A stretch of 64,000 bases of DNA, taken from assembly GCA_951406725.2 (NCBI GenBank), contig OX597838.1:3844001-3908000 (forward strand). The letters run 5' to 3'. The DNA comes from Octopus vulgaris (taxonomy: Eukaryota). Of the stretch, positions 676 through 58,199 are shown piece by piece. Below the pieces are notes generated by a model that worked only from the letters and a program-made list of their open reading frames with translations, did not search any database and was not told where the DNA came from. The translations under genes were made by a program, and so were the position numbers. The stretch's first letter is position 1, and each line of letters begins with the position of its first letter.

Positions 676-779
676 CAATATATTACAGTCATCATCGCAT
701 CGCTGTTTCTGTTGTTATTGTCGTGTTTAATTTCATTCGATATTTTCGTTGATTTTACGATTAAATTTATTAACTTAAA

Positions 780-1085
780 CAATTGCAGCATGGAAGGAGT
801 TCATAAGCCATTTAAAAACACACAAAAGCCGTGAGATTCACTTCAACAATTAAATTGAATTTGTTAAAATATTTTCGTCGCTTTGAGACCGCAACCTGTT
901 AGCTGACAAAATTCCGTGCTGCATCTCTGAGAAAATATTTTGACAAAAATATTTTGACAAATTAAATTTAAATGTTGAAGTGAATCTAACGGTTTTTGTA
1001 TGTTTTTAAACACCTTCCACGCTTCAGCTGTTTTTGTTTCAGCACACGATCTCAGATCAGGTCACTTGCTAAGCAAGTACATCTT
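780..1085. mobile_element. Fold-back copy of a Penelope-like pLTR/retrozyme-type repeat (family also at 55778-55980)
   Basis: ~790-875 is the reverse complement of ~950-1030; homologous to 55778-55980; decayed hammerhead fold on minus strand at 858-911. Confidence 0.6.
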
Positions 1086-1433
1086 TGTAATTTATTAACT
1101 TATTCTTGTATATATTTCAGTTTCCATATCTAAAAACTTCCAAAAATTTGGTTAACACATAGAACATGCCACGGGGAAGAGAGACGGGGAGGAGCAAGGA
1201 GGGAGCGAGAGAAGGAGAGAAGAGGGAGAAAGAGGGGGGGAAGATTGCTAGAGAGACAGCAAAGTGAGGAGGAAGAAGAGGCAGAAGAAAATAGAGGGTG
1301 GTATATAAAGAAAGAAAGAAAGAAAGAAAGAAAGAGAGAAGAAAGAGAGAAAGAGAAAGATAGGAAGAAAGAAAGAAAAGAAGAAAGAAAGAAAGAAGAT
1401 AGATGGATAGATAGATAGATAGATAGATGGATG

Positions 1434-5223: not shown

Positions 5224-5652
5224 CATACTGTTTTATTTGGGTTGGTTATAAATGGGATGCTTAAAGGCATATATATGTACTGTTTTATATAGGATGGTCA
5301 TAAATTGGACCTCTGACGCCCTGGTTGAATATATGTCAGTTTGTCTGTCTGTTTGTCTGTATATTTGTTCGTCTGTCTAACTGTCCGTCTATCTCTCTAT
5401 CTATATCTCTCTCTCTCTCCTTTTCTCTGTCCATCTATCTATTGCAATTTTTTCTCTCTCCATTTTTTCTTCTTTTTTTCTCATTCTCTCTCCATTTTTT
5501 TGTCTCAATCCCTTCTGTCGAAGAGCGTAGGCTGGAAACGTCAAAGACTTTTTCATTCTTCCCGATCGTCATACTAATACACCCGCTGGTTGTTCTCTCA
5601 CCTTTTTTCATCTTTTGTTTTCTGTCAATCTGAACTATATATATATATATAT

Positions 5653-10849: not shown

Positions 10850-11386
10850 AAGAAATTACAAAAACAAGTACAAAGTTCGAACCCGTCAGCCTGTACGGCC
10901 CAGCAACTATCTTTTTTCCTTTCCTTGATGATTAAGCTGGGTTACTGACACCCACCTTTCTCATCACATCCTTCCGACGTTTCTTATACTCTTTCTGTGG
11001 CAGGGTCTTCCTCTCCAACCCCATCTTGCTCTTCAGATGGTAAGTTAACAAACCGGGGCCAGAGACGAAGGACCCTGTCACTAAACCTTCCATTCTTGTT
11101 CTCCACACACACTCAATATTGCCACCGTACAGTAAAAACAAGCCCCACCTTCCTTTGAGAGTCCAGTTGGCGGTATCATCTTTATCATAGATCCAGCCGA
11201 CAGCTGTACTCGTCCCAGATGCGACAACACGTGTTCTACGTAACTTATCAAGCTTGACTGCTCCCGACAATGTCCAAAAGCGTGCTGAACGGTTTCATCG
11301 TCCAGCCCACATCTTGGACACGTCGGTGGTTCTGACATTCCGTGCCTCGATAACTTATCGCGAAGCTCGGCTAGAGATGGAGACAC
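10850..11386 (-). mobile_element. Non-LTR retrotransposon (Tx1/L1-like) ORF2 3' fragment, frameshifted
   Basis: CPRCGLDDETVQHAFGHC matches the C-terminal CCHC knuckle of L1/Tx1 ORF2; continues in another frame as VWRTR... Confidence 0.75.
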
Positions 11387-11589
11387 TAAATTCTTGTTCG
11401 AAATACATATTTTTCGAAGTGATTCACCATCACAGATCTCATCAATAGAAAAATTATTATTTCTAAATCTCTGAAAGATTTCAGAGGTATCGACTGAAAG
11501 TACACCGTTTCAACGTACTCTACACAGCAACGAAAACCTTTGAGAAGAGTCCTTGTTTTCATCTCAAATAAAATATATGTACGCTCTTC

Positions 11590-23000: not shown

Positions 23001-23480
23001 ACGGCGAGCTGGCAGAAGCGTTAGCACGCCGGGCGAAATGCATAGCCATATTTCGTCTGCCGTTATGTTCTGAGTTCAAATTCCGCCGAGATCGACTTTG
23101 CCTTTCATCCTTTCGGGGTCGATAAATTAAGTACCTATTTCTTTATTACCCACAAGGGGCTAAACACAGAGCGGACAAACAAGGACAGACATAGGTATTA
23201 AGTCGATTACATCGACCCCAGTGCGTAACTGGTATTTAATTTATCGACCCCGAAAGGATGAAAGGCAAAGTCGACCTCGGCGGAATTTGAACTCACAACG
23301 TAACGCAGACGAAATACCGCTAAGCATTTCGCCCGGCGTGCTAACGTTTCTGCCAGCTCGCCGCCGATAAATTAAGTACCAGTTACGCACTGGGGTCGAT
23401 GTAATCGACTTAATACCTATGTCTGTCCTTGTTCGTCCCCTCTGTGTTTAGCCCCTTGTGGGTAGTAAAGAAATAGGTAT
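23001..23480. mobile_element. Nin-like SINE with a complete inverted copy nested inside
   Basis: Forward 23001-23135, reverse ~23135-23365, forward tail 23366-23480. Confidence 0.85.
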
Positions 23481-32272: not shown

Positions 32273-32435
32273 AGTGGCTGTGTGGTAAGTAGCTTGCTAA
32301 CCAACCACATAGTTCCAGGTTCAGTCCCACTGCGTGGCATCTTGGGCAAGTGTCTTCTGCTATAGCTCCGGGCCGACCAATGCCTTGTAAGTGGATTTGG
32401 TAGACGGAAACTGAAAGAAACCTGTCGTATATATG

Positions 32436-32470
<35 letters not shown>

Positions 32471-32660
32471 TTGTCCCCCTAGCATTGCTTGACAACCGAT
32501 GCTGGTGTGTTTACGTCCCCGTCACTTAGCGGTTCGGCAAAAGAGACCGATAGAATAAGTACTGGGCTTACAAAAATAAGTCCCGGCGTCGATTTGCTCG
32601 ACTAAAGGCGGTGCTCCAGCATGGCCGCAGTCAAATGACTGAAACAAGTAAAAGAGTAAA
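32273..32660 (+). mobile_element. SINE family A
   Basis: Consensus match from agtggctgtgtggtaag to gactgaaacaagtaaaagag. Confidence 0.88.
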
Positions 32661-32876
32661 AAAAAAGAGAGAATGTGTGTGTGAGAGACTATATCTCGGA
32701 GTACTTCTACACATGCGACTGTATCTGAGAGTACTTTCGCAGAGTTTTGCTGTGAATGTGATTGTATCCCAGAGGATTTCACAAGATGTGGCCGTCTCGA
32801 TACTCAACTATGATGACGTAACATTATTTATATTATTTACATTCGACGGGTATTTGTCCTCATCTAGCTTGTTGTT

Positions 32877-32922
32877 AACACAACGTTTCGGCTGATAAAC
32901 CCTCTAGCCTTCATCAGGTGTC
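32877..32922 (-). ncRNA. Minimal type I hammerhead ribozyme motif
   Basis: GACAC CTGATGA A GGCT...AGCC GAAA CG TT^GTGTT; mirror copy at 33368-33413 (+) has an A9G change. Confidence 0.7.
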
Positions 32923-32985
32923 TTGGGGAAATTTCGAACTTGGGTTCTCATTCGATTCCAGGCAGTGACCTGTATGATGATGATG

Positions 32986-33299: not shown

Positions 33300-33977
33300 G
33301 CAACAGCAACAACAACAACATCGAAAACTAGCTTGGGAATGAGAATACAGGTTCAAAATTTCCCCAAGACACCTGATGGGCGCTGGAGGGTACATCAGCC
33401 GAAACGTTGTGTTAACAACAAACAAGATGAGGACAAATATCCGTCAAATGTAAATAATGTAAATAATGTACATAATTCCTCATCTCTTCAATATAGAACT
33501 GTATGATGACATAAATCTATTTGAAAAACCGCTAAGACCCTGCTCCAGCATGGTCTTAGCCACGGTGTCTGAACCAACCTAAAGAACTATCACCGTTTTG
33601 GTTTCTTTCATTCCACATCAGTCGATGCAGTGAGGCCGAATATCCTTAGTTCGATCCCAAGTCATATTACCTTAAGCAAACATCACTTTCGGTTACTTCC
33701 TATCGATTCATTCTCCATGAGTGAAACCGAGTAGAGGAACTGAAGTGGCTAGATGACGTGGCTGTGACGATGACGCCTATTGCGGTAGAAATACGCATAG
33801 ATCTAACATCTTGTCTCCAAGCTATTAAGCCGTGGTTCCTTTAATGGTTTTCGATTCTGGAGAATTCCTGATACTCGAGATTATCTCCCCTTACCATCGC
33901 CTCCAGACGTTTGGTTAACTTTCTCTGAAAGCGGAAATAATTCGATATAAAATATACATAAATACATACAAACATAA

Positions 33978-36656: not shown

Positions 36657-36874
36657 TGCGAAGGTTTTTGTTAAGCAGTGTCGATTCGGTAATAAAAATT
36701 AACAATAGTATTTTATAAGCTTAAAGCTTAAAAGCGATCACCGCGCGATGACAAAAGAAAATAGTCTAATAATGGGGTATTTAAGCCCTTGACAGGAAAT
36801 AAGTAGGTGCTTTTCCGTCCCAGGTGCACGATTATCGCTATAAGCTCATAAAATATTTACAGAATATATATATA

Positions 36875-37270
36875 GGCGCAGGAGTGGCTGTGTGGTAAGT
36901 GGCTTGCTAACCAGCCACATGGTTCCGGGTTCAGTCCCACTGCGTGGCATCTTGGGCAAGTGTCATCTGCTATAGCCCCGGGCCGACCAATGCCTTGTGA
37001 GTGGATTTGGTAGACGGAAACTGAAAGAAGCCTGTCGTATATATGTATATGTATGTGTGTATGTCTGTGTTTGTCCCCTTAGCATTGCTTGACAACCGAT
37101 GCTGGTGTGTTTACGTCCTCGTCACTTAGCGGTTCGGCATAAGAGACCGATAGAATAAGTACTGGGCTTACAAAGAATAAGTCCTGGGGGTCGATTTGCA
37201 CGACTAAAAGGCGGTGCTCCAGTATGGCCACAGTTAAATGACTGAAACAAGTAAACGAGTAAAGAGTAAG
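36875..37270 (+). mobile_element. SINE family A, full length
   Basis: Consensus match; further fragments at 37322-37618 (-) and 37670-37843 (+). Confidence 0.88.
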
Positions 37271-38445: not shown

Positions 38446-38568
38446 CGCCTCATGGTTAGATGAGGCTTTCAAAAATAAGTCTATAGACTCATTAAATGTT
38501 CCTCCCCACGGAAATCTTTAGTAAAAGGCGAAAGATTTATCCGCTTTGGGTGAGGAGAAACCAGAGTT
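38446..38568 (-). ncRNA. U5: U5 spliceosomal snRNA, copy 1
   Basis: AACTCTGGTTTCTCCTCAC...AAATCTTT CGCCTTTTACT AAAGATTT CCGTGGGGAGGAAC; Sm site ATTTTTG; 3' hairpin GCCTCAT/ATGAGGC; invariant loop I. Confidence 0.96.
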
Positions 38569-38803
38569 AATAGACACGATTTGACATTCAGTATTATACA
38601 AAATATCTGAATAAACAACCACTGATTACAAAACGTAATTTAATATACTTAATTAATTCTGTACTGCATCAATTTTAAAAATAATAATATGTATACAATT
38701 AGTATATTATAATAAATCTTTTAGACTCGATGCTATAAAGAGATATTTAGGTTATAATTAAATAAAACTAGATTTATTCATACCTGTCAGTGAGATTTGT
38801 AAC

Positions 38804-38817
38804 CGACCTTCACCTTG
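38804..38817 (-). promoter_or_regulatory. Candidate distal snRNA element CAAGGTGAAGGTCG (also 40927-40940, 42583-42596, 45406-45419)
   Basis: 14/14 identical at about -236 to -250 in all four U5 copies within diverged AT-rich flanks. Confidence 0.55.
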
Positions 38818-38977
38818 AGAGCGATCGTCACTGTTCTTACCTGTCAGGACCACGTGATTTTAAACCAGTTCATAGATATTTAAGGTTCTACGTCAAACTG
38901 CACCCGAGGCACACCCGACGAAAAGTTACTTGGATTTTTTTTTATTTCCGTTTGCTCCTCGTGGTCAGTCGAAATGC

Positions 38978-39028
<51 letters not shown>

Positions 39029-39123
39029 CGGCGGCGGTGATGGTGGTGGTGGAAGTAGTAGTAGTAATAGAGATTGTAGTAGCAGTAGCGGTTGTCATGG
39101 TGGTGATGGTGGTAGTAGTAGTA

Positions 39124-39160
<37 letters not shown>

Positions 39161-39784
39161 CGGTGGTGGTAGTTGTGGTGGTAGTAGTAGTAGTAGTGGT
39201 GGTGGTTGTAGTAGTAGTAGATGGTGGTGGTGGTTGTAGTAGTAGTAGTAGATGGTGGTGGTGGTAGTAGTAGTAGTAGTGGTGGTAGTAGTGGTGGTAG
39301 TAGTAGTAGTGGTAGTAGTAGTGGTGGTGGTGGTGGTAGTAGTAGTAGTAGTGGTGGTAGTAGTGGTGGTAGTAGTAGTAGTGGTGGTGATGGTGGTAGT
39401 AGTAGTAGTAGTGGTGGTGGTGGTGGTAGTAGTCTTATAAAAACGGTTGTTGGTGAGGAGAGAGGATTAGTCCCAAATCGATAAATGAATGAGAAGACTT
39501 GAAATCAGCGGCGCTCCAGACCCAGCCACCACCACCAAAAGCAACAGCGACAGCAGCGGTCATCGACAGTCAGACATAAGCTTAAACTGCTAAAAATAAC
39601 AGTCAAATTTCAATCATATTACGTCTTGCTATCTTAAGGAAGGACACATTACGCGATGTGAGACCTAAGTATGCAAAATGACAGGGTGGTCACGGGGGGA
39701 AAGATTGTTGGTCATACATTTATTCAATCACTATTGATCCGTGACTAAAGAATTTCGGTCTAATTTTACAAGAAAGTTACAATA

Positions 39785-39946
39785 GGCGCAGGAGTGGCTG
39801 TGTGGTAAGTAGCTTCTTTACCAACCACATGGTCCCGGGTTCAGTCCCACTGCGTGGCTCCTTGGGCAAGTGTCTTCTACTATAGCCCCGGGCCGACCAA
39901 AGCCTTGTGAGTGGATTTGGTAGACGGAAACTGAAAGAAGCCCGTC

Positions 39947-40006
<60 letters not shown>

Positions 40007-40201
40007 CTGTGTTTGTCCTCCTAGCATTGCTTGACAACCGATGCTGGTGTGTTTATGTCCCCGTTACTTAGCGGTTCGGCAAAAGAGACCGATAGAATAA
40101 GTACTGGGCTTACAAAAGAATAAGTCCCGGGGTCGAGTTGCTCGATTGAAGGCGGTGCTCCAGCATGGCCGCAGTCAAATGACTGAAACAAGTAAAAGAG
40201 T
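39785..40201 (+). mobile_element. SINE family A, full length
   Basis: Consensus match. Confidence 0.9.
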
Positions 40202-40568
40202 AATAGACCACATGTTCTCGGGTTCAGTCCCACAGCGCGTCATCTTAGGCAACTGTCTTCTACTATAGCAGAGGTGAATCACCCCAAGCGGGGGTATAAA
40301 TGAACTTGTTGGGGGTAATGGGGACTTAAGTAGAATTATATTTTTAAAATGCGTTCCTTGTTAAGACACATTTAACGTAAATCCTACAACTAGAAAACAT
40401 CGACGGGTTTATCGTGGCTGGAACGTCTCTGATCTTAAGTCTTCTCAACGAAACGCGTCGAAAACCAACGGGGTGTGAAACACCAATGATAGCTATTTCA
40501 ACAACCGCACTAAATTTTCGGTGGTAGGCATGGACGGAAGTCAATTGATCTGATGTTAATTTAATTAT

Positions 40569-40691
40569 CGCCTCATGGTTAGATGAGGCTTTCAAAAATA
40601 AGTCTATAGACTCATTAAATGTTCCTCCCCACGGAAATCTTTAGTAAAAGGCGAAAGATTTATCCGCTCTGGGTGAGGAGAAACCAGAGTT
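40569..40691 (-). ncRNA. U5: U5 spliceosomal snRNA, copy 2
   Basis: As copy 1, with one change in the internal loop (CCCAGAGCGG). Confidence 0.96.
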
Positions 40692-41134
40692 AACTGACAC
40701 GATTTGACGTTCAGTATTATACAAAATATCTAAATAAACAACCACTGATTACAAAAAGGAAATTAATATATTTAATTAATTCTGTACGGAACAAATTTCA
40801 AATATTTTTCTGTATAAATAATTACTACATTATAATAAATCTTTAAAACCATAGAGAGTAATTAGATATTTAGATTTTAATGGAATAAAACTAGAAATAT
40901 CTATGTCTTTTAGTGAGGTTTATAATCGACCTTCACCTTGAAAGAAAGTTTTAATGTTCGAGTTGCTAGAAATAGCAGTGATATCTTTCGGTCTTCATGA
41001 AGGACATTTGCTACAATATTAATCCTGTTCAGAGATATCTACGCACGACGTGTCTGTGCATTTATAATATTCTTATTGATTAGTCGTGTCAAAGATGTAG
41101 TGCTTTGTTTTGTTACTTGAGTCTTTGAATGGGT

Positions 41135-41178
<44 letters not shown>

Positions 41179-41180
<2 letters not shown>

Positions 41181-41420
41181 AGGCACATGGCCTAGTGGTT
41201 AGAGCAGCGGGTTCGAATCTCAGACCACGCGGCTTCGACAGAAGGTAATGGCGAACTTTTGCTGACTCTTTCGCCACAACTTACTCTCACTCTTTCCTCC
41301 GGCATCTTGCAGGTGACCTGCGTCGGACTTGCGTCCCGTCCAGGGAACCTATACGCCAAGAAAACCAGAGAAACCGGCCCTTATGAGCCACGGATGGCTC
41401 GAGAAGGAACAAACAAATAA
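41179..41420 (+). mobile_element. tRNA-derived SINE (internally deleted head), duplicated at 42831-43070
   Basis: A box tggcctagtggttag, B box ggttcgaatctc, caaa tail; two near-identical copies. Confidence 0.7.
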
Positions 41421-41951
41421 ACATATATATATATATATATATTCTGTTGTGTCTGGGGGGAGTCATTCTCTTTTAGTGCCTTGTAATTTAACACACTCAC
41501 TGGTAAAATTTCCACTCATTTACGTATTTTCATTGCGTCTTGCAACCTTTTCAATAGTTGTTGACTCTGTCCGTTATTCGAACTGCGTTCTTTTTGTTTG
41601 TACGCATGTGTGTGCGCATACTCGTATGCACACATGCGTGCATATGTATGCATATATATATATATGCATGCTGTCTAAAAAAGGTGGATGGTCGTAGTGG
41701 GAACGCTTAAAAAATTGCTGCCATATACGAAAAATAGTAGCCGATAAACGAAGGTTACATTATGTAATGTAATCCTACATATAGAAACAAAAGAGGCTGT
41801 CGTGGATGGAGTGCCTCTGATCTCAAGTCTTCTCAATGAGTCCGTATGGGATCTAATCCCACCACCAGCCAACAGGTTATGAAGCAGAGCTGCCTGTCGT
41901 AGTGACATCAACATTCTTGGAACATGTGTGATCTGATCTTAGTTTAATTAT

Positions 41952-41973
41952 CGCCTCATGGTTAGATGAGGCT
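41952..41973 (-). pseudogene. U5: U5 3' stump (terminal hairpin only)
   Basis: cgcctcatggttagatgaggct with a copy-4-type downstream flank; the rest of the gene is replaced at a ggct junction. Confidence 0.8.
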
Positions 41974-42220
41974 GAAATAGCAGCCGAAATTCCTAAAACT
42001 GTACCCTACCCTTTCGAAAGAGGAAGGTTGCGTCATGTAACGTAATCCTACATATCGACGTGTTTATCATGACTGGAACGCCTCTGATAACAAGTCTTCT
42101 CAATCAGTGACGACCTACGATATACACCGGCCAGAATTGAAAAGCACTATCGATGGACACACAGAATTTTTAGTGATGGTCACGGACGGAAGTCAATTGA
42201 TCTGATGTTAATTTAATTAT

Positions 42221-42346
42221 CGCCTCATGGTCAGATGAGGTTTTCAAAAATAAGTCTATAGACTCATTAAAATGTTCCTCCCCACGGAAATCTTTAGTAA
42301 AAGGCGAAAGATTTATCCGCTCGGGGGTGAGGAGAAACCAGAGTAT
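42221..42346 (-). ncRNA. U5: U5 spliceosomal snRNA, copy 3 (variant, mosaic flanks)
   Basis: Starts ATACTCTGG; intact loop I and Sm site; two 1-nt homopolymer insertions and two substitutions in the 3' hairpin. Confidence 0.92.
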
Positions 42347-42790
42347 CCAAATATGTCATGTCATGTCTATTATTATACAAAATATCTAAATAAACAACCA
42401 CTGATTACAAAAAGGAAATTAATATATTTAATTAATTCTGTACGGAACAAATTTCAAATATTCTTCTGTATAAATAATTACTACATTATAATAAATCTTT
42501 AAAACTATATAGAGTAATTAGATATTTAGATTTTAATGGAATAAAACTAGAAATATCTATGTCTTTTAGTGAGGTTTATAATCGACCTTCACCTTGAAAG
42601 AAAGTTTTAATGTTCGAGTTGCTAGAAATAGCAGTGATATCTTACGGTCTTCATGAAGGACATTTGCTACAATATTAATCCTGTTCAGAGATATCTACGC
42701 ACGACGTGTCTGTGCATTTATAATATTCTTATTGATTAGTCGTGTCAAAGGTGTAGTGCTTTGTTTTGTTACTTGTGTCTTTGACTGTGT

Positions 42791-42832
<42 letters not shown>

Positions 42833-43070
42833 AGGCACATGGCCTAGTGGTTAGAGCAGCGGGTTCGAATCTCAGACCACGCGGCTTCGACAGAAGGCAA
42901 TGGCGAACTTTTGCTGACTCTTTCGCCACAACTTCTCTCACTCTTTCCTCCGGCATCTTGCAGCTCACCTGCGTCGGACTTGCGTCCCGTCCAGGGAACC
43001 TATACGCCAAGAAAACCAGAGAAACCGGCCCTTATGAGCCACGGATGGCTCGAGAAGGAACAAACAAATA

Positions 43071-43106
<36 letters not shown>

Positions 43107-43152
43107 TGAACTGAAGGAATGGAGTTGAACGAAGATTGAACAGAAATCGTTT

Positions 43153-43245
43153 TATTTCATTCTACACGTGTTTCGAAAGGCACAATTTACCAAAATCCGA
43201 TTGAATAAGGAGACCATATTGTGTCTTTCTCTTCAGGAAGAAATA
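43153..43245 (-). ncRNA. Type I hammerhead ribozyme motif (left arm of palindrome)
   Basis: Mirror of 43420-43512. Confidence 0.75.
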
Positions 43246-43419
43246 GGAAATCCGTTGGGAAAAAACAAAAACAGAACAGAGGCGGAGCAAAACAAATCGA
43301 ACGAGGCTCCTAAGAGCCCATGGTCAAACTCTTTTGACCATGGGCTCTTAGGAGCCTAGTTCGATTTGTTTGTTTTGCTCCGCCTCTGTTCTGTTTTTGT
43401 TTTTTCCCAACGGATTTCC

Positions 43420-43512
43420 TATTTCTTCCTGAAGAGAAAGACACAATATGGTCTCCTTATTCAATCGGATTTTGGTAAATTGTGCCTTTCGAAACACGTG
43501 TAGAATGAAATA
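43420..43512 (+). ncRNA. Type I hammerhead ribozyme motif (right arm of palindrome)
   Basis: TATTTC-TTC CTGAAGA GAAAG a CACAAT...ATTGTG c CTTTC GAAA CACGTG TA^GAA t GAAATA; predicted cleavage after 43502. Confidence 0.78.
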
Positions 43513-43714
43513 AAACGATTTCTGTTCAATCTTCGTTCAACTCCATTTCTTCAATTCACTAATAATATTAAAATTCAATTATCCGCACCAACGCACGGTT
43601 GCAACACCATATGGTTGTACCTCCAACCGTGCTGTCTTCTGCTGTGATTTTTGCTACCAAGGTGTCGGTTAAACTTTTGATTAATCTGCTACAAGATTAT
43701 TCATCTTTCTATTT

Positions 43715-43763
<49 letters not shown>

Positions 43764-43768
<5 letters not shown>

Positions 43769-44496
43769 TCAATATAAGGGTAGCAAAAAATTCAATACAA
43801 AATTATAATTTTTTTCGCCATCAGCGGTCTAGTAAGAAAGAAAAAATAGTCAAAAGACTATATAATATACATTCAACAATAATATTAAGGAGTGGCCTTA
43901 ATAGGCCATTCAACTCACTAAAACGAGCAGCTAAACTCAAACCGCTAAATAGTAGTAATTCAGAAATCAAAGGAAAATTAAAAACATTTAGCCTAATCAT
44001 CTTTGGACAATGCATTGTTTCGACGTACTTTTTGGTAAACCAGCCTAATTAAATTAAATTAAATTTAATCAAGTCAATTTACCACTGGCCCGTCTCATCG
44101 GCAAAGAAGCCAGGAGGAATAAATATTCCACGAGGTAACAGCATCGATGCCTTGGGAATATATACTCTAAATTTTCAAAATCTACCGTCATCGCGCCAAT
44201 TTATCAGCAGCAAATTTAAACTGCTGATTTAATTTCAGAATTAGCCAAAAAATCATTAATTAATCAATATAAGGGTAGCAAAAAATTCAATAGAAATTTT
44301 TTTTTTTTTTTCGCCACCAGCGGTCTAGTGAGAAATAAAAAATAGTCAACAGACTATATAATGTACATTCAACAATAATATTAAGGAATGGCCTTAATAG
44401 GCCATTCAACTCACTAAAACGAGCAGCTAAACTCAAACCGCTAAATAGTAGTAATTCAGAAATCAAAGGAAAATTTAAAACATTTACCCTAATCAT
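43764..44496 (-). mobile_element. ~1.5-unit tandem (period ~495 bp) hammerhead-containing element, retrozyme/Penelope-like
   Basis: 43764-44000 repeated at 44259-44496; hammerhead at 44000-44107; (TA)n flanks. Confidence 0.7.
44000..44107 (-). ncRNA. Type I hammerhead motif, U4C core variant
   Basis: TCTTTG CCGATGA GACG...CGTC GAAA CAATGCATTG TC^CAAAGA; perfect 6-bp stem I, palindromic stem III. Confidence 0.7.
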
Positions 44497-44712
44497 ATAT
44501 ATGTATGTATGTATATATATATATATTCTGTTGTGTCTGGGGGGAGTAATTCTCTTTTAGTGCCTTGTAATTTAACACACTCACTGGTAAAATTTCCACT
44601 CATTTACGTATTTTCATTGCGTCTTGCAACCTTTTCAATAGTTGTTGACTCTGTCCGTTATTCAGACTGCGTTCTTTTTGTTTGTCCGCTTACTCATGCA
44701 TATATGTATGTA

Positions 44713-44758
<46 letters not shown>

Positions 44759-45044
44759 TGCTGTCTAAAAAAGGTGGATGGTCGTAGTGGGAACGCTTAA
44801 AAAAATTGCTGCCATATACGAAAAATAGTAGCCGATAAACGAAGGTTACATTATGTAATGTAATCCTACATATAGAAACAAAAGGGGCTGTCGTGGCTGG
44901 ATTGCCTCTGATCTCAAGTCTTCTCAAACAGAGTCCGTATGGGATCTAATCCCGCCACCAACCAACAGGTTATGAAGCAGAGCTGCCTATCGTAGTGACA
45001 TCAACATTCTTGGAACATGTGTGATCTGATCTTAGTTTAATTAT

Positions 45045-45168
45045 CGCCTCATGGTTAGATGAGGCTTTCAAAAATAAGTCTATAGACTCATTAAATGTTC
45101 CTCCCCACGGAAATCTTTAGTAAAAGGCGAAAGATTTATCCGCTCGGGGTGAGGAGAAACCAGAGTAT
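45045..45168 (-). ncRNA. U5: U5 spliceosomal snRNA, copy 4
   Basis: ATACTCTGGTTTCTCCTCACCCCGAGCGGATAAATCTTTCGCCTTTTACTAAAGATTTCCG...; intact Sm site and 3' hairpin. Confidence 0.96.
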
Positions 45169-46121: not shown

Positions 46122-46329
46122 CTGGCTTTTTTCAGTTTCCGTCTACGAAATCCACTCACATGTATGTCATATATAGGGGAGACATCTAGAAGCATTGCGG
46201 AAAGACTAAATGAACATTTGAGAGAATATGACGACAAAAGAAAAAAAAAAAAAACAGTCCTGCATATATATATGATAGATCGTTAGCCACTACACACATT
46301 TTTATCTCTCCTTGTTTTTTTATGTGTCC

Positions 46330-46365
46330 CTTTCTGTAGAAGAGCGTAGGCTCGAAACGTAAAAG
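46330..46365 (+). ncRNA. Minimal hammerhead-like motif, A6U family (also 5511-5546 +, 53050-53085 -)
   Basis: CTTT CTGTAGA A GAGC gtag GCTC GAAA CG TA^AAAG. Confidence 0.55.
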
Positions 46366-46467
46366 ACTTTTTCTATTCCTGAGCGTTATACTATTACATC
46401 TGTTTGTTTTGCACACCACCTGTCTTCGTCTTTTGTTTTCTTCGTAAACTCTCCCTATATATATGTA

Positions 46468-46526
<59 letters not shown>

Positions 46527-52917: not shown

Positions 52918-52963
<46 letters not shown>

Positions 52964-53199
52964 GAAATTTACAGAAAAACAAATGACAAAGACAGATGTA
53001 TGAACAACAAGCAGGTGTATTAGTTTGACGCTCGGGGAGGTGAGAAAGTCTTTTACGTTTCGTGCCTACGCTCTTAAACAGAAAGAAATAATGAAAAAAA
53101 TAAACAGAGAGAGAATGAAAAAACTTGTGGATTTAGCAATGAAGCATATACATGCACACATATATATATATGCATATATATTATACACACACACACATA

Positions 53200-55638: not shown

Positions 55639-55777
<139 letters not shown>

Positions 55778-55907
55778 CGGAGATGTACTTGCATAGCGAG
55801 TGATTTGATCTGAGATCGTGTGCTGAAACGAAAACAATTGCAGCGTGGAAAGTGTTTGTAAGCCATTTAAGAAACACACAAAAGTCGTTCGATTCACTTA
55901 AGTTTAA

Positions 55908-55956
55908 TTGTCAAAATATTTTCGTCGCTTTAAGACCGCGACCTGATCACTGCTAA
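55908..55956 (-). ncRNA. Minimal hammerhead-like motif with G3-C8 swapped core
   Basis: GCA GTGATCA G GTCGC ggtcttaaa GCGAC GAAA ATAT TT^TGACAA; stem I is better preserved in the 858-911 copy (TTTTGTCA). Confidence 0.55.
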
Positions 55957-55998
55957 AAATCCGTGCTGCATCTGAGAAAGTAACACCTGCAATTGTTA

Positions 55999-56060
<62 letters not shown>

Positions 56061-56128
56061 AATGTAACCACATGTGAATTGTTGACGATTTTCTTCTTCC
56101 GCCTTCCTTTCTATTGGACTTTCCTCTA

Positions 56129-56162
56129 TTTCTGAAGAAGAGTGTCTGCTCGAAACGTTAAG
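56129..56162 (+). ncRNA. Minimal hammerhead motif, weak stem I
   Basis: TTT CTGAAGA A GAGT gtct GCTC GAAA CG TT^AAG inside a ~210-bp element flanked by (TA)n. Confidence 0.5.
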
Positions 56163-56275
56163 CCATCTTTCTTTCCTTTCCTGAACGTCTACTTATACTT
56201 TACATGTACCACGTCCTCGCGTTGCTGTTTTCTTTTGTGTTCGTTGTTCTTTTTCTGGATTTACTATACATATAC

Positions 56276-57779: not shown

Positions 57780-57811
<32 letters not shown>

Positions 57812-58199
57812 GACGTAGGAGTGGCTGTGTGGTAAGTAGCTTGCTAACCAACCACATGGTTACAGGTTCAGTCCCACTGCGTGGCAACTTGGGCAAGTGT
57901 CTTCTACTATAGCCTCGGGCCGACCAAAGCCTTGTGAGTGGATTTGGTAGACGGAAACTGAAAGAAGCCCGTCGTATATATGTATATACATGTGTCTGTG
58001 TTTGTCCTCCCAACATCGCTTGACAACCGATGCTGGTGTGTTTACGTCCCCGTAACTTAGCGGTTCGGCAAAAGAGATCGATAGAATAAGTACTAGGCTT
58101 CCAAAGAATAAGTCCTGGGGTCTATTTGCTCGACTAATGGCGGTGCCCCAGCATGGCCACAGTCACAAGACTGAAACAAGTAAAAAGAGTAAAAAGAGT
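57812..58199 (+). mobile_element. SINE family A, full length; truncated head copy at 58275-58400
   Basis: Consensus match. Confidence 0.88.

What the first reader, a model, noticed from the sequence alone, without database searches (positions are those of the whole stretch)
858..911. G3-C8 swapped hammerhead family (two copies 55 kb apart)
Minus strand: this copy reads TTTTGTCA GCTAACA G GTTGC..GCGAC GAAA ATAT TT TAACAAA, and 55908-55956 reads TTTAGCA GTGATCA G GTCGC..GCGAC GAAA ATAT TT TGACAA. The merged consensus TTGTCA GTGAWCA g GTCGC/GCGAC GAAA[ATAT]TT^TGACAA is a complete minimal fold with G3 and C8 in both copies. Caveats: each copy is individually damaged, the site would be UUU, and the extra nucleotide after A9 is G.
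Basis: partly seen in the sequence, partly recalled or inferred. Interest (0 to 1): 0.75.

Follow-up and report, generated by a model that had tools for sequence, protein, structure and literature searches.

The report
Octopus retroelement hammerhead with swapped core
A very common jumping-gene repeat of octopuses carries a small self-cutting-type "hammerhead" RNA whose two normally fixed, paired core letters have swapped places throughout the repeat family; this looks like an undescribed natural variant of a known ribozyme, but cutting has not been shown.

Summary
Both copies read as stated and each is damaged. Contigs of four public runs (three organism labels) laid on the copy at 55775-55985 show a very abundant repeat family. 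Its majority letters repair stem I and set N7 to A. No other letter reaches 3% at G3, C8 or any other core position. G3-C8 is therefore the family state, not a two-copy artefact; 0 of 20,000 shuffles gave such a fold.

The repeat is the pseudo-LTR of an Octopus Penelope-like retroelement: inverted arms, two recurring 3' ends (a 'tail'), a 14-bp target duplication, and a reading frame starting 47 nt after the cut site whose first 31 residues match an Octopus protein at 93.5%.

Best reading (0.6): a compensated, weakly active minimal hammerhead that needs a dimer or the element's protein. Main rival (0.25): a dead relic. Cleavage is untested, no stem covariation was seen, and G3 can wobble-pair with U17.

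I found natural U3-A8 and engineered G3-C8 in print, but no natural G3-C8; key papers were unavailable. This scan noted G3-C8 before in phages and protist elements. New variant of a known kind.

The parts
764..777 (+). left copy of a 14-bp AT-rich target-site duplication flanking locus A
   Evidence: identical to 1089-1102, does not extend on either side
778..937 (-). locus A left arm: pseudo-LTR copy without the tail, ending at the inner 3' end
   Evidence: 80% alike to 55832-55982
861..909 (-). decayed hammerhead copy A (core 903-897; G3 and C8 kept, U4 and G5 changed, so predicted dead)
938..1088 (+). locus A right arm: inverted, 5'-truncated copy from the GAAA box to the outer 3' end, with the tail
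   Evidence: 76% alike to 55926-55770 in the opposite orientation
1089..1102 (+). right copy of the 14-bp target-site duplication
55778..55982 (-). locus B: about 205-nt pseudo-LTR copy inserted in (TA)n
55908..55956 (-). hammerhead copy B. Stem I 55956-55951 / 55913-55908; core 55950-55944 (G3 at 55950, C8 at 55945); extra G at 55943; stem II 55942-55938 / 55928-55924; G12-A14 55923-55921; palindrome 55920-55915; U17 at 55914; predicted cut between 55914 and 55913
   Evidence: family letters
55778..55866 (-). start of the element's reading frame (ATG at 55866), cut off by the outer 3' end of the insertion
   Evidence: tblastn 93.5% over 31 aa to the N-terminus of P0005, E 5e-14; HMMER hit P0002 at its residues 1-25, E 1.1e-8
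55778..55832 (-). 'tail': about 54-55 nt between the inner and outer 3' ends (outer end uncertain by 3 nt of microhomology)
   Evidence: the left arm of A and the short right arm of B both end at the 55833 equivalent; the other arms end at the 55778 equivalent
55987..55997 (+). locus B short inverted arm ending at the inner 3' end, followed by (TA)n
   Evidence: its reverse complement matches 55833-55843 over 11 nt

Best explanation
The 205-nt repeat is the pseudo-LTR of an Octopus Penelope-like retroelement (PLE). It carries a minimal type I hammerhead whose C3-G8 core pair was replaced by G3-C8 in the master element before the family spread. In a transcript through tandem copies, the 6-nt palindrome after GAA pairs between two copies to supply helix III, probably helped by the element's own protein. 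G12 and the 2'-OH of residue 8 then cut after U17, slowly. Reverse transcription starts 81 or 136 nt downstream of the cut site, inside the start of the reading frame, and leaves inverted, 5'-truncated arms in AT-rich DNA. Shown: the sequence, family-wide G3-C8, the secondary structure, the insertion anatomy and the reading-frame link. Inferred: PLE identity of the protein, dimer or protein dependence, and cleavage.
For: Family letters: no alternative at 3% or more of depth at positions 3, 4, 5, 6, 8, 9, 10.1, 11.1, 12-15.1, 16.1 or 17 in 4 of 4 runs, with all 27 bins covered. The majority profile folds into stems I and II with pair probabilities of 0.72-1.0. Chance 0 of 20,000. If two core changes fell at random among 11 conserved positions, both at 3 and 8 and complementary has p = 0.006. 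PLE anatomy at 2 of 2 loci, plus opposite-strand and head-to-tail joints in other copies. The reading frame links to Octopus proteins P0002, P0005 and P0006. P0006 has DK-x-G and YGL..HK motifs spaced like those of Penelope and Hydra RTs in the PMC8557442 supplement (matched by eye). In the PLE PAc, engineered C3G/G8C partly restores cleavage and cleavage needs the protein (PMC11167929).
Against: No cleavage data. No compensatory double change was seen in stems I or II; the listed variants are wobbles or CpG-type decay. G3 can wobble-pair with U17 (P = 0.67 in a nearest-neighbour model), which mimics the proposed inactive 3-17 pairing (PMC3884650). The double hammerhead is only 0.6 kcal/mol better than two monomers (-25.2 vs -24.6), and a non-hammerhead duplex scores -31.9. 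The folding z-score is only -1.9. Many copies contain the whole motif and so came from uncut RNA. In PAc the ribozyme is not needed for insertion in vitro. The p = 0.006 is post hoc and the feature was picked from a very large scan. Depth shares are weighted by contig depth, biased to the reference, and blind to rare variants. No Rfam hammerhead hit. P0006 has no Pfam-A hit and stops before the RT core.
Confidence: 0.6

Rival explanations
1. Dead relic: the master element's hammerhead was inactivated by two transversions and the family spread anyway, so G3-C8 is fixed by descent, not by selection.
For: Hammerhead mutants do not affect PAc insertion in vitro. Naiad PLEs spread without canonical hammerheads (PMC8557442). 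All copies share one ancestry, so uniformity is one event. G3-U17 wobble. No stem covariation.
Against: Only positions 3 and 8 of 11 core positions differ, and they are complementary (p = 0.006 under random change). All other core letters, G10.1-C11.1, the palindrome and stem I are intact in the majority profile.
Confidence: 0.25
2. The fold is kept for a non-catalytic job (binding site for the element's protein, or control of translation from the ATG 47 nt downstream), with little or no cutting.
For: The motif lies just upstream of the reading-frame start and the two RT start sites. In silico, a C3-G8 core in this context lets a competing fold win (stem I 0.34-0.42) whereas G3-C8 does not (0.89-1.0), so the swap could be about folding.
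Against: It does not by itself explain why all catalytic residues and the 3-8 complementarity are kept. The loop may have changed after the swap.
Confidence: 0.12
3. Chance look-alike, or an artefact of merging two decayed copies.
For: Neither window copy is intact. No Rfam hit.
Against: Family letters from four runs reproduce the merged fold. 0 of 20,000 shuffles. The motif sits where PLE hammerheads sit. Rfam also missed the ordinary minimal hammerhead at 56132 inside the same searched stretch.
Confidence: 0.03

Closest known systems
Minimal type I hammerheads (min-HHR) in pseudo-LTRs of metazoan Penelope-like elements (Cervera and De la Pena 2014, PMC4209133)
   Same: Type I order, short stem I, unpaired nucleotide between 9 and 10.1, G10.1-C11.1, palindromic helix III for dimer use, NUH site. 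A UUU site is in the Crassostrea example and an extra G in the Nasonia example.
   Different: Core is GUGAACA (G3-C8). The paper reports C3-G8 and a U3-A8 variant only; none of the Fig. S3 rows read has G3, and four G3-C8 core strings were absent from the supplement text.
PAc (Poseidon PLE of Anolis carolinensis; Frangieh et al. 2024, PMC11167929)
   Same: Hammerhead next to the ORF start; two RT start sites inside the ORF start that define a tail; AT-rich targets; the engineered C3G/G8C double change partly rescues cleavage.
   Different: Here the swap is natural and family-wide. The ATG lies 47 nt after the cut site rather than inside the ribozyme. The tail is about 54-58 nt rather than 30-40.
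Natural hammerhead core variants (Perreault et al. 2011, PMC3088659)
   Same: Natural covariation at the 3-8 pair is known (U3-A8).
   Different: G3-C8 reverses purine and pyrimidine and needs two transversions. It is not named in section 8 or found by term search in 11 supplement files; figures were not visible.
Penelope/Poseidon, Neptune and Hydra PLE clades (Craig et al. 2021, PMC8557442)
   Same: Inverted 5'-truncated arms, tail at one end, (TA)n targets, DK-x and YGL..HK-type RT N-terminal motifs.
   Different: The clade is not determined. P0006 mixes a Penelope-like YGL with a Hydra-like KDHK, and its nearest Atlas clusters are rotifer DUF8422 proteins (score 0.97, family on 16-41% of members).

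Membership tests
Hammerhead ribozyme, minimal type I | Stems I and II around a junction, with palindromic helix III | tested here: met
   majority profile: stem I 6 bp, stem II 5 bp, 6-nt palindrome
Hammerhead ribozyme, minimal type I | C at 3 and G at 8 (CUGANGA box) | tested here: not met
   G3 and C8 in 2 of 2 window copies and no alternative at 3% or more in 4 of 4 runs
Hammerhead ribozyme, minimal type I | Watson-Crick pair possible between 3 and 8 | tested here: met
   G-C by sequence; the pair is inferred from complementarity, not from covariation within the family
Hammerhead ribozyme, minimal type I | U4 G5 A6 A9 G12 A13 A14 and A15.1-U16.1 | tested here: met
   family majority; copy B has all, copy A lacks U4 and G5
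Hammerhead ribozyme, minimal type I | G10.1-C11.1 and one unpaired nucleotide before stem II | tested here: met
   the extra letter is G, outside the published H consensus but present in one published example
Hammerhead ribozyme, minimal type I | NUH cleavage triplet | tested here: met
   UUU, no alternative at 3% or more; a G3-U17 wobble may compete
Hammerhead ribozyme, minimal type I | Covariation in the stems | tested here: inconclusive
   only wobble-type and CpG-type single changes are listed; no full-length copies could be aligned
Hammerhead ribozyme, minimal type I | Site-specific self-cleavage | not testable with these tools
   needs an in vitro assay
Rfam hammerhead families | Covariance-model match | tested here: not met
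   0 hammerhead families among 7 matches at E <= 10 in 55770-56250; the ordinary minimal hammerhead at 56132 was missed as well
Penelope-like element | Inverted, 5'-truncated pseudo-LTR copies | tested here: met
   2 of 2 loci; opposite-strand joints in other copies
Penelope-like element | Tail at one end only (two RT start sites) | tested here: met
   the same inner and outer ends at 2 of 2 loci; longer than the published 30-40 bp
Penelope-like element | AT-rich or (TA)n insertion sites | tested here: met
   14-bp AT-rich duplication at A, (TA)n at B
Penelope-like element | Single ORF starting in the pseudo-LTR and encoding a telomerase-like RT | tested here: inconclusive
   ORF start shown; RT identity rests on motifs matched by eye in P0006, linked through P0002; no Pfam-A hit; model too poor to search (pLDDT 34.5)
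Penelope-like element | C-terminal GIY-YIG endonuclease | not testable with these tools
   no genome held and no full-length copy retrieved

The most novel reading that the evidence does not exclude
A catalytically active natural G3-C8 hammerhead is fixed in a retroelement family of the order of 10,000 copies shared by several Octopus species. Its G3-U17 wobble acts as a brake that is released only on dimerisation or on binding of the element's protein, so cutting is tied to a late step of transposition. Standard CUGANGA searches miss the whole family.
Probability: 0.3. Interest if true: 0.7.

Novelty: new variant of a known kind. Interest (0 to 1): 0.5.

Why it matters
The C3-G8 pair is a textbook part of the hammerhead core, and G3-C8 is the standard laboratory rescue mutant. 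If this family cuts, that mutant exists in nature in a large animal repeat family, and descriptors that demand C or U at position 3 undercount genomic ribozymes. It also bears on an open question: whether PLE hammerheads are under selection or only ride along. A compensated double transversion, whose single-change intermediates are inactive in PAc, argues for selection, and the family gives a direct natural test.

Tried and rejected
No whole genome is held, so no genome-wide BLAST was possible.

Pattern scans: viral contigs gave 0 matches twice. Metagenomes gave 3 matches, all 3 rejected as chance: 59-61% GC, no similarity to the element.

Rfam: the 150 best of 648 whole-window matches shown held no hammerhead family; none among 7 in 55770-56250.

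Expression: no RNA holder listed. Run X8 is only guessed to be RNA, so nothing is claimed. Of 24 listed runs I laid 4.

Coding overlap: a possible open frame across the ribozyme (P0001, stops read as X) had no candidates. A second downstream frame had 57 candidates and none at E <= 1. Coding constraint on G3 and C8 is therefore unsupported. Of 3 HMMER hits I dropped P0003 and P0004 as repetitive chance hits.

P0006: no match in PDB sequences, phage records or viral contigs. The single-sequence model was unusable, so no fold search was run. P0002 in the Atlas scored 0.75, a non-result.

Pfam on 145 of 171 complex stop-to-stop frames of 60 aa or more found no RT or endonuclease next to either locus.

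A pile-up of copy ends at the cut site could not be tested, because copy B lacks 8-9 nt just downstream and distorts depth there. My first dimer energies were malformed or off by one and were replaced.

No natural G3-C8 was found in searches. Lunse et al. 2017 (PMC5785218, many PLE hammerhead variants) is not held. Przybilski and Hammann 2007 is recalled only. Figures and bioRxiv supplements were not visible and could hold the variant.

Full report
Setting. The window is microsatellite-rich animal DNA with four U5 snRNA genes. No whole genome is held. The host is an Octopus species, by the names that public sources give the matching proteins; the species was not determined.

Observation. Both strings are present as described. 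The copies are 80% alike over 162 columns, and a third inverted arm adjoins copy A. Each copy is damaged: A has lost U4 and G5, and B has two stem I mismatches. Neither passes a hammerhead descriptor alone.

Family state. I laid contigs of 4 of 24 listed runs (three organism labels, four studies) on 55775-55985 at 80% likeness, listing differences from 3%. In all, 8,618, 10,020, 5,968 and 420 contigs were laid, and all 27 bins were covered in each run. Majority letters change B at N7 (to A, 97-99%) and at both stem I mismatches (93-99.9%), which restores pairing. No row appears for G3 (55950), U4, G5, A6, C8 (55945), A9, the extra G, G10.1, C11.1, G12-A15.1, the palindrome or U17. Summed depth at 55946 and 55951, which bracket positions 3 to 7, is 567,000 and 371,000 in X1. 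The listed stem variants are wobbles (55911 in 10-19%; 55951 in up to 9%) or CpG-type decay of 3-6% in X1, X2 and X5 and up to 21% in X8. No compensatory double change was seen. The tool warns that depth is no copy number. Set against 28-54 for single long contigs in X1, it suggests an order of 10,000 copies; that is inference. Shares are depth-weighted and reference-biased, so a small C3-G8 subfamily is not excluded.

Chance. The majority profile gives stem I of 6 bp, core GUGAACA, one extra G, stem II of 5 bp with G10.1-C11.1, GAA, the palindrome AAUAUU and U17. This occurred in 0 of 20,000 shuffles at that stringency and 1 of 20,000 at a looser one. The folding z-score alone is only -1.9.

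Host element. Locus A is an inverted pair (778-937 and 938-1088) between perfect 14-bp direct repeats. Locus B is a 205-nt arm plus an 11-nt inverted arm in (TA)n. At both loci one arm ends at the 55778 equivalent and the other at the 55833 equivalent. This matches the PLE 'tail', which in PAc is the stretch between two RT start sites (PMC11167929, passages), and the inverted truncated copies described in PMC8557442 (passages). Other copies show opposite-strand joints (55870 to 55970, 55873 to 55944, 55874 to 55973) and a head-to-tail joint (55930 to 55778). Depth falls towards the element's 5' end, partly an artefact of B's private changes.

Reading frame. A profile of the frame starting at the ATG at 55866 hit P0002 at its residues 1-25 (E 1.1e-8; Octopus bimaculoides). 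P0002 found P0005 and P0006. The first 31 residues of P0005 match the window at 93.5% and the protein runs on beyond the insertion end; its last third is methyltransferase-like, so that gene model is probably chimeric. P0006 overlaps P0002 at 81% and carries PPKF, KLRW, TDKSG and YGL..KDHK at 144, 168, 292 and 364-371. By eye these follow the order and spacing of PLE RT N-terminal motifs in the PMC8557442 text and supplement. There is no Pfam-A hit, no usable model, and no RT core or endonuclease was retrieved, so PLE membership is likely, not proven. Ordinary C3-G8 minimal hammerheads of other families lie in the same window, one as an inverted pair.

Mechanism. Minimal PLE hammerheads lack a stable helix III, are proposed to work as dimers and cleave weakly in vitro (PMC4209133, parts 1-2 of 4 read). 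In PAc cleavage needs the protein, single C3G or G8C changes abolish it, the double change partly restores it, and insertion in vitro does not need it. A review states the same rescue (PMC8495972, one passage). The general acid is the 2'-OH of residue 8 (PMC6155905, passage), so a swapped pair can keep the geometry. I infer slow, dimer- or protein-dependent cutting after U17, 47 nt before the ATG. Under random change, two core substitutions would fall on 3 and 8 and be complementary with p = 0.006; this is post hoc and one evolutionary event.

Against activity. A nearest-neighbour model pairs G3 with U17 at P = 0.67 (0.98 if 17 were C, 0 if A), like the inactive 3-17 pairing discussed in PMC3884650 (passages). 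The double hammerhead is barely favoured (-25.2 vs -24.6 kcal/mol) and another duplex scores -31.9. Copies that hold the whole motif came from uncut RNA. In the same model a canonical core in this context misfolds (stem I 0.34-0.42 vs 0.89-1.0), a possible but speculative reason for the swap.

Comparison with print. Natural U3-A8 is reported in PLEs and elsewhere (PMC3088659, section 8 and passages). No G3 core is among the Fig. S3 rows of PMC4209133 (supplement parts 1-2 of 3). A UUU site (oyster) and an extra G (Nasonia) are there. Searches and supplement term searches found no natural G3-C8. I also saw passages of PMC6765202, PMC7151607, PMC10085705, PMC7229834 and PMC13282606 and part 1 of 5 of bioRxiv 10.64898/2026.07.22.740005, none naming it. 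Lunse et al. 2017 was not held, figures are invisible, and the library lacks most subscription papers, so absence from print is not established. That all four Watson-Crick 3-8 pairs can work in stabilised ribozymes (Przybilski and Hammann 2007) is recalled, not read. Earlier notes of this scan report G3-C8 in phages and, with an inserted base, in protist PLEs; I did not test them.

Verdict. It works like a minimal dimer-type PLE hammerhead. It fails the literal CUGANGA criterion, so it is filed as a variant, not a standard member. Real hammerhead homologue with family-wide G3-C8: about 0.93. Weakly active: about 0.6. New variant of a known kind; interest 0.5.

Noticed in passing
window 32821-32953 and 33337-33469: Inverted pair of another repeat family with an ordinary minimal hammerhead (core at 32917, minus strand); the second arm is decayed. 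Same inverted anatomy as the finding.
   Followed up: partly
window 56132 (+) and 58769 (-): Two more minimal hammerheads with ordinary C3-G8 cores and palindromic helix III.
   Followed up: partly
window 46167-46470 (+): Weak GIY-YIG hit (E 0.0024, below the Pfam cut-off) followed by a decayed hammerhead-like motif near 46336; related repeats at 5510-5635 and 52948-53085. Probably the 3' end of another PLE.
   Followed up: partly
window 38446-45168 (-): Four U5 snRNA genes (88-94 bits) within duplicated blocks.
   Followed up: no
window 11084-11509 (-): zf-RVT hit (E 1.4e-5, just under the cut-off), probably a LINE remnant.
   Followed up: no
window 32273-32657, 36866-37266, 57803-58196 and others: Multi-copy family of about 390 bp; looks like a tRNA-derived SINE (label recalled, not tested).
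   Followed up: no
window 55923-55927 versus 55937-55940: CpG-type decay of 3-6% is listed for the 5' strand of stem II but none at 3% or more for the two CpGs of the 3' strand and C11.1-G12 in any of 4 runs. Unexplained; may be a contig artefact.
   Followed up: no
window 55970-55982 and 937: Arms at both loci and two inversion joints in other copies end within about 12 nt of each other, 15-25 nt upstream of stem I. This may mark the 5' end of the template RNA.
   Followed up: partly
P0005: A public Octopus gene model joins this element's N-terminus to a methyltransferase-like part; probably a chimeric model.
   Followed up: no
window 43096-43568, 23002-23479, 2067-2258: Long inverted repeats of other families.
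   Followed up: no
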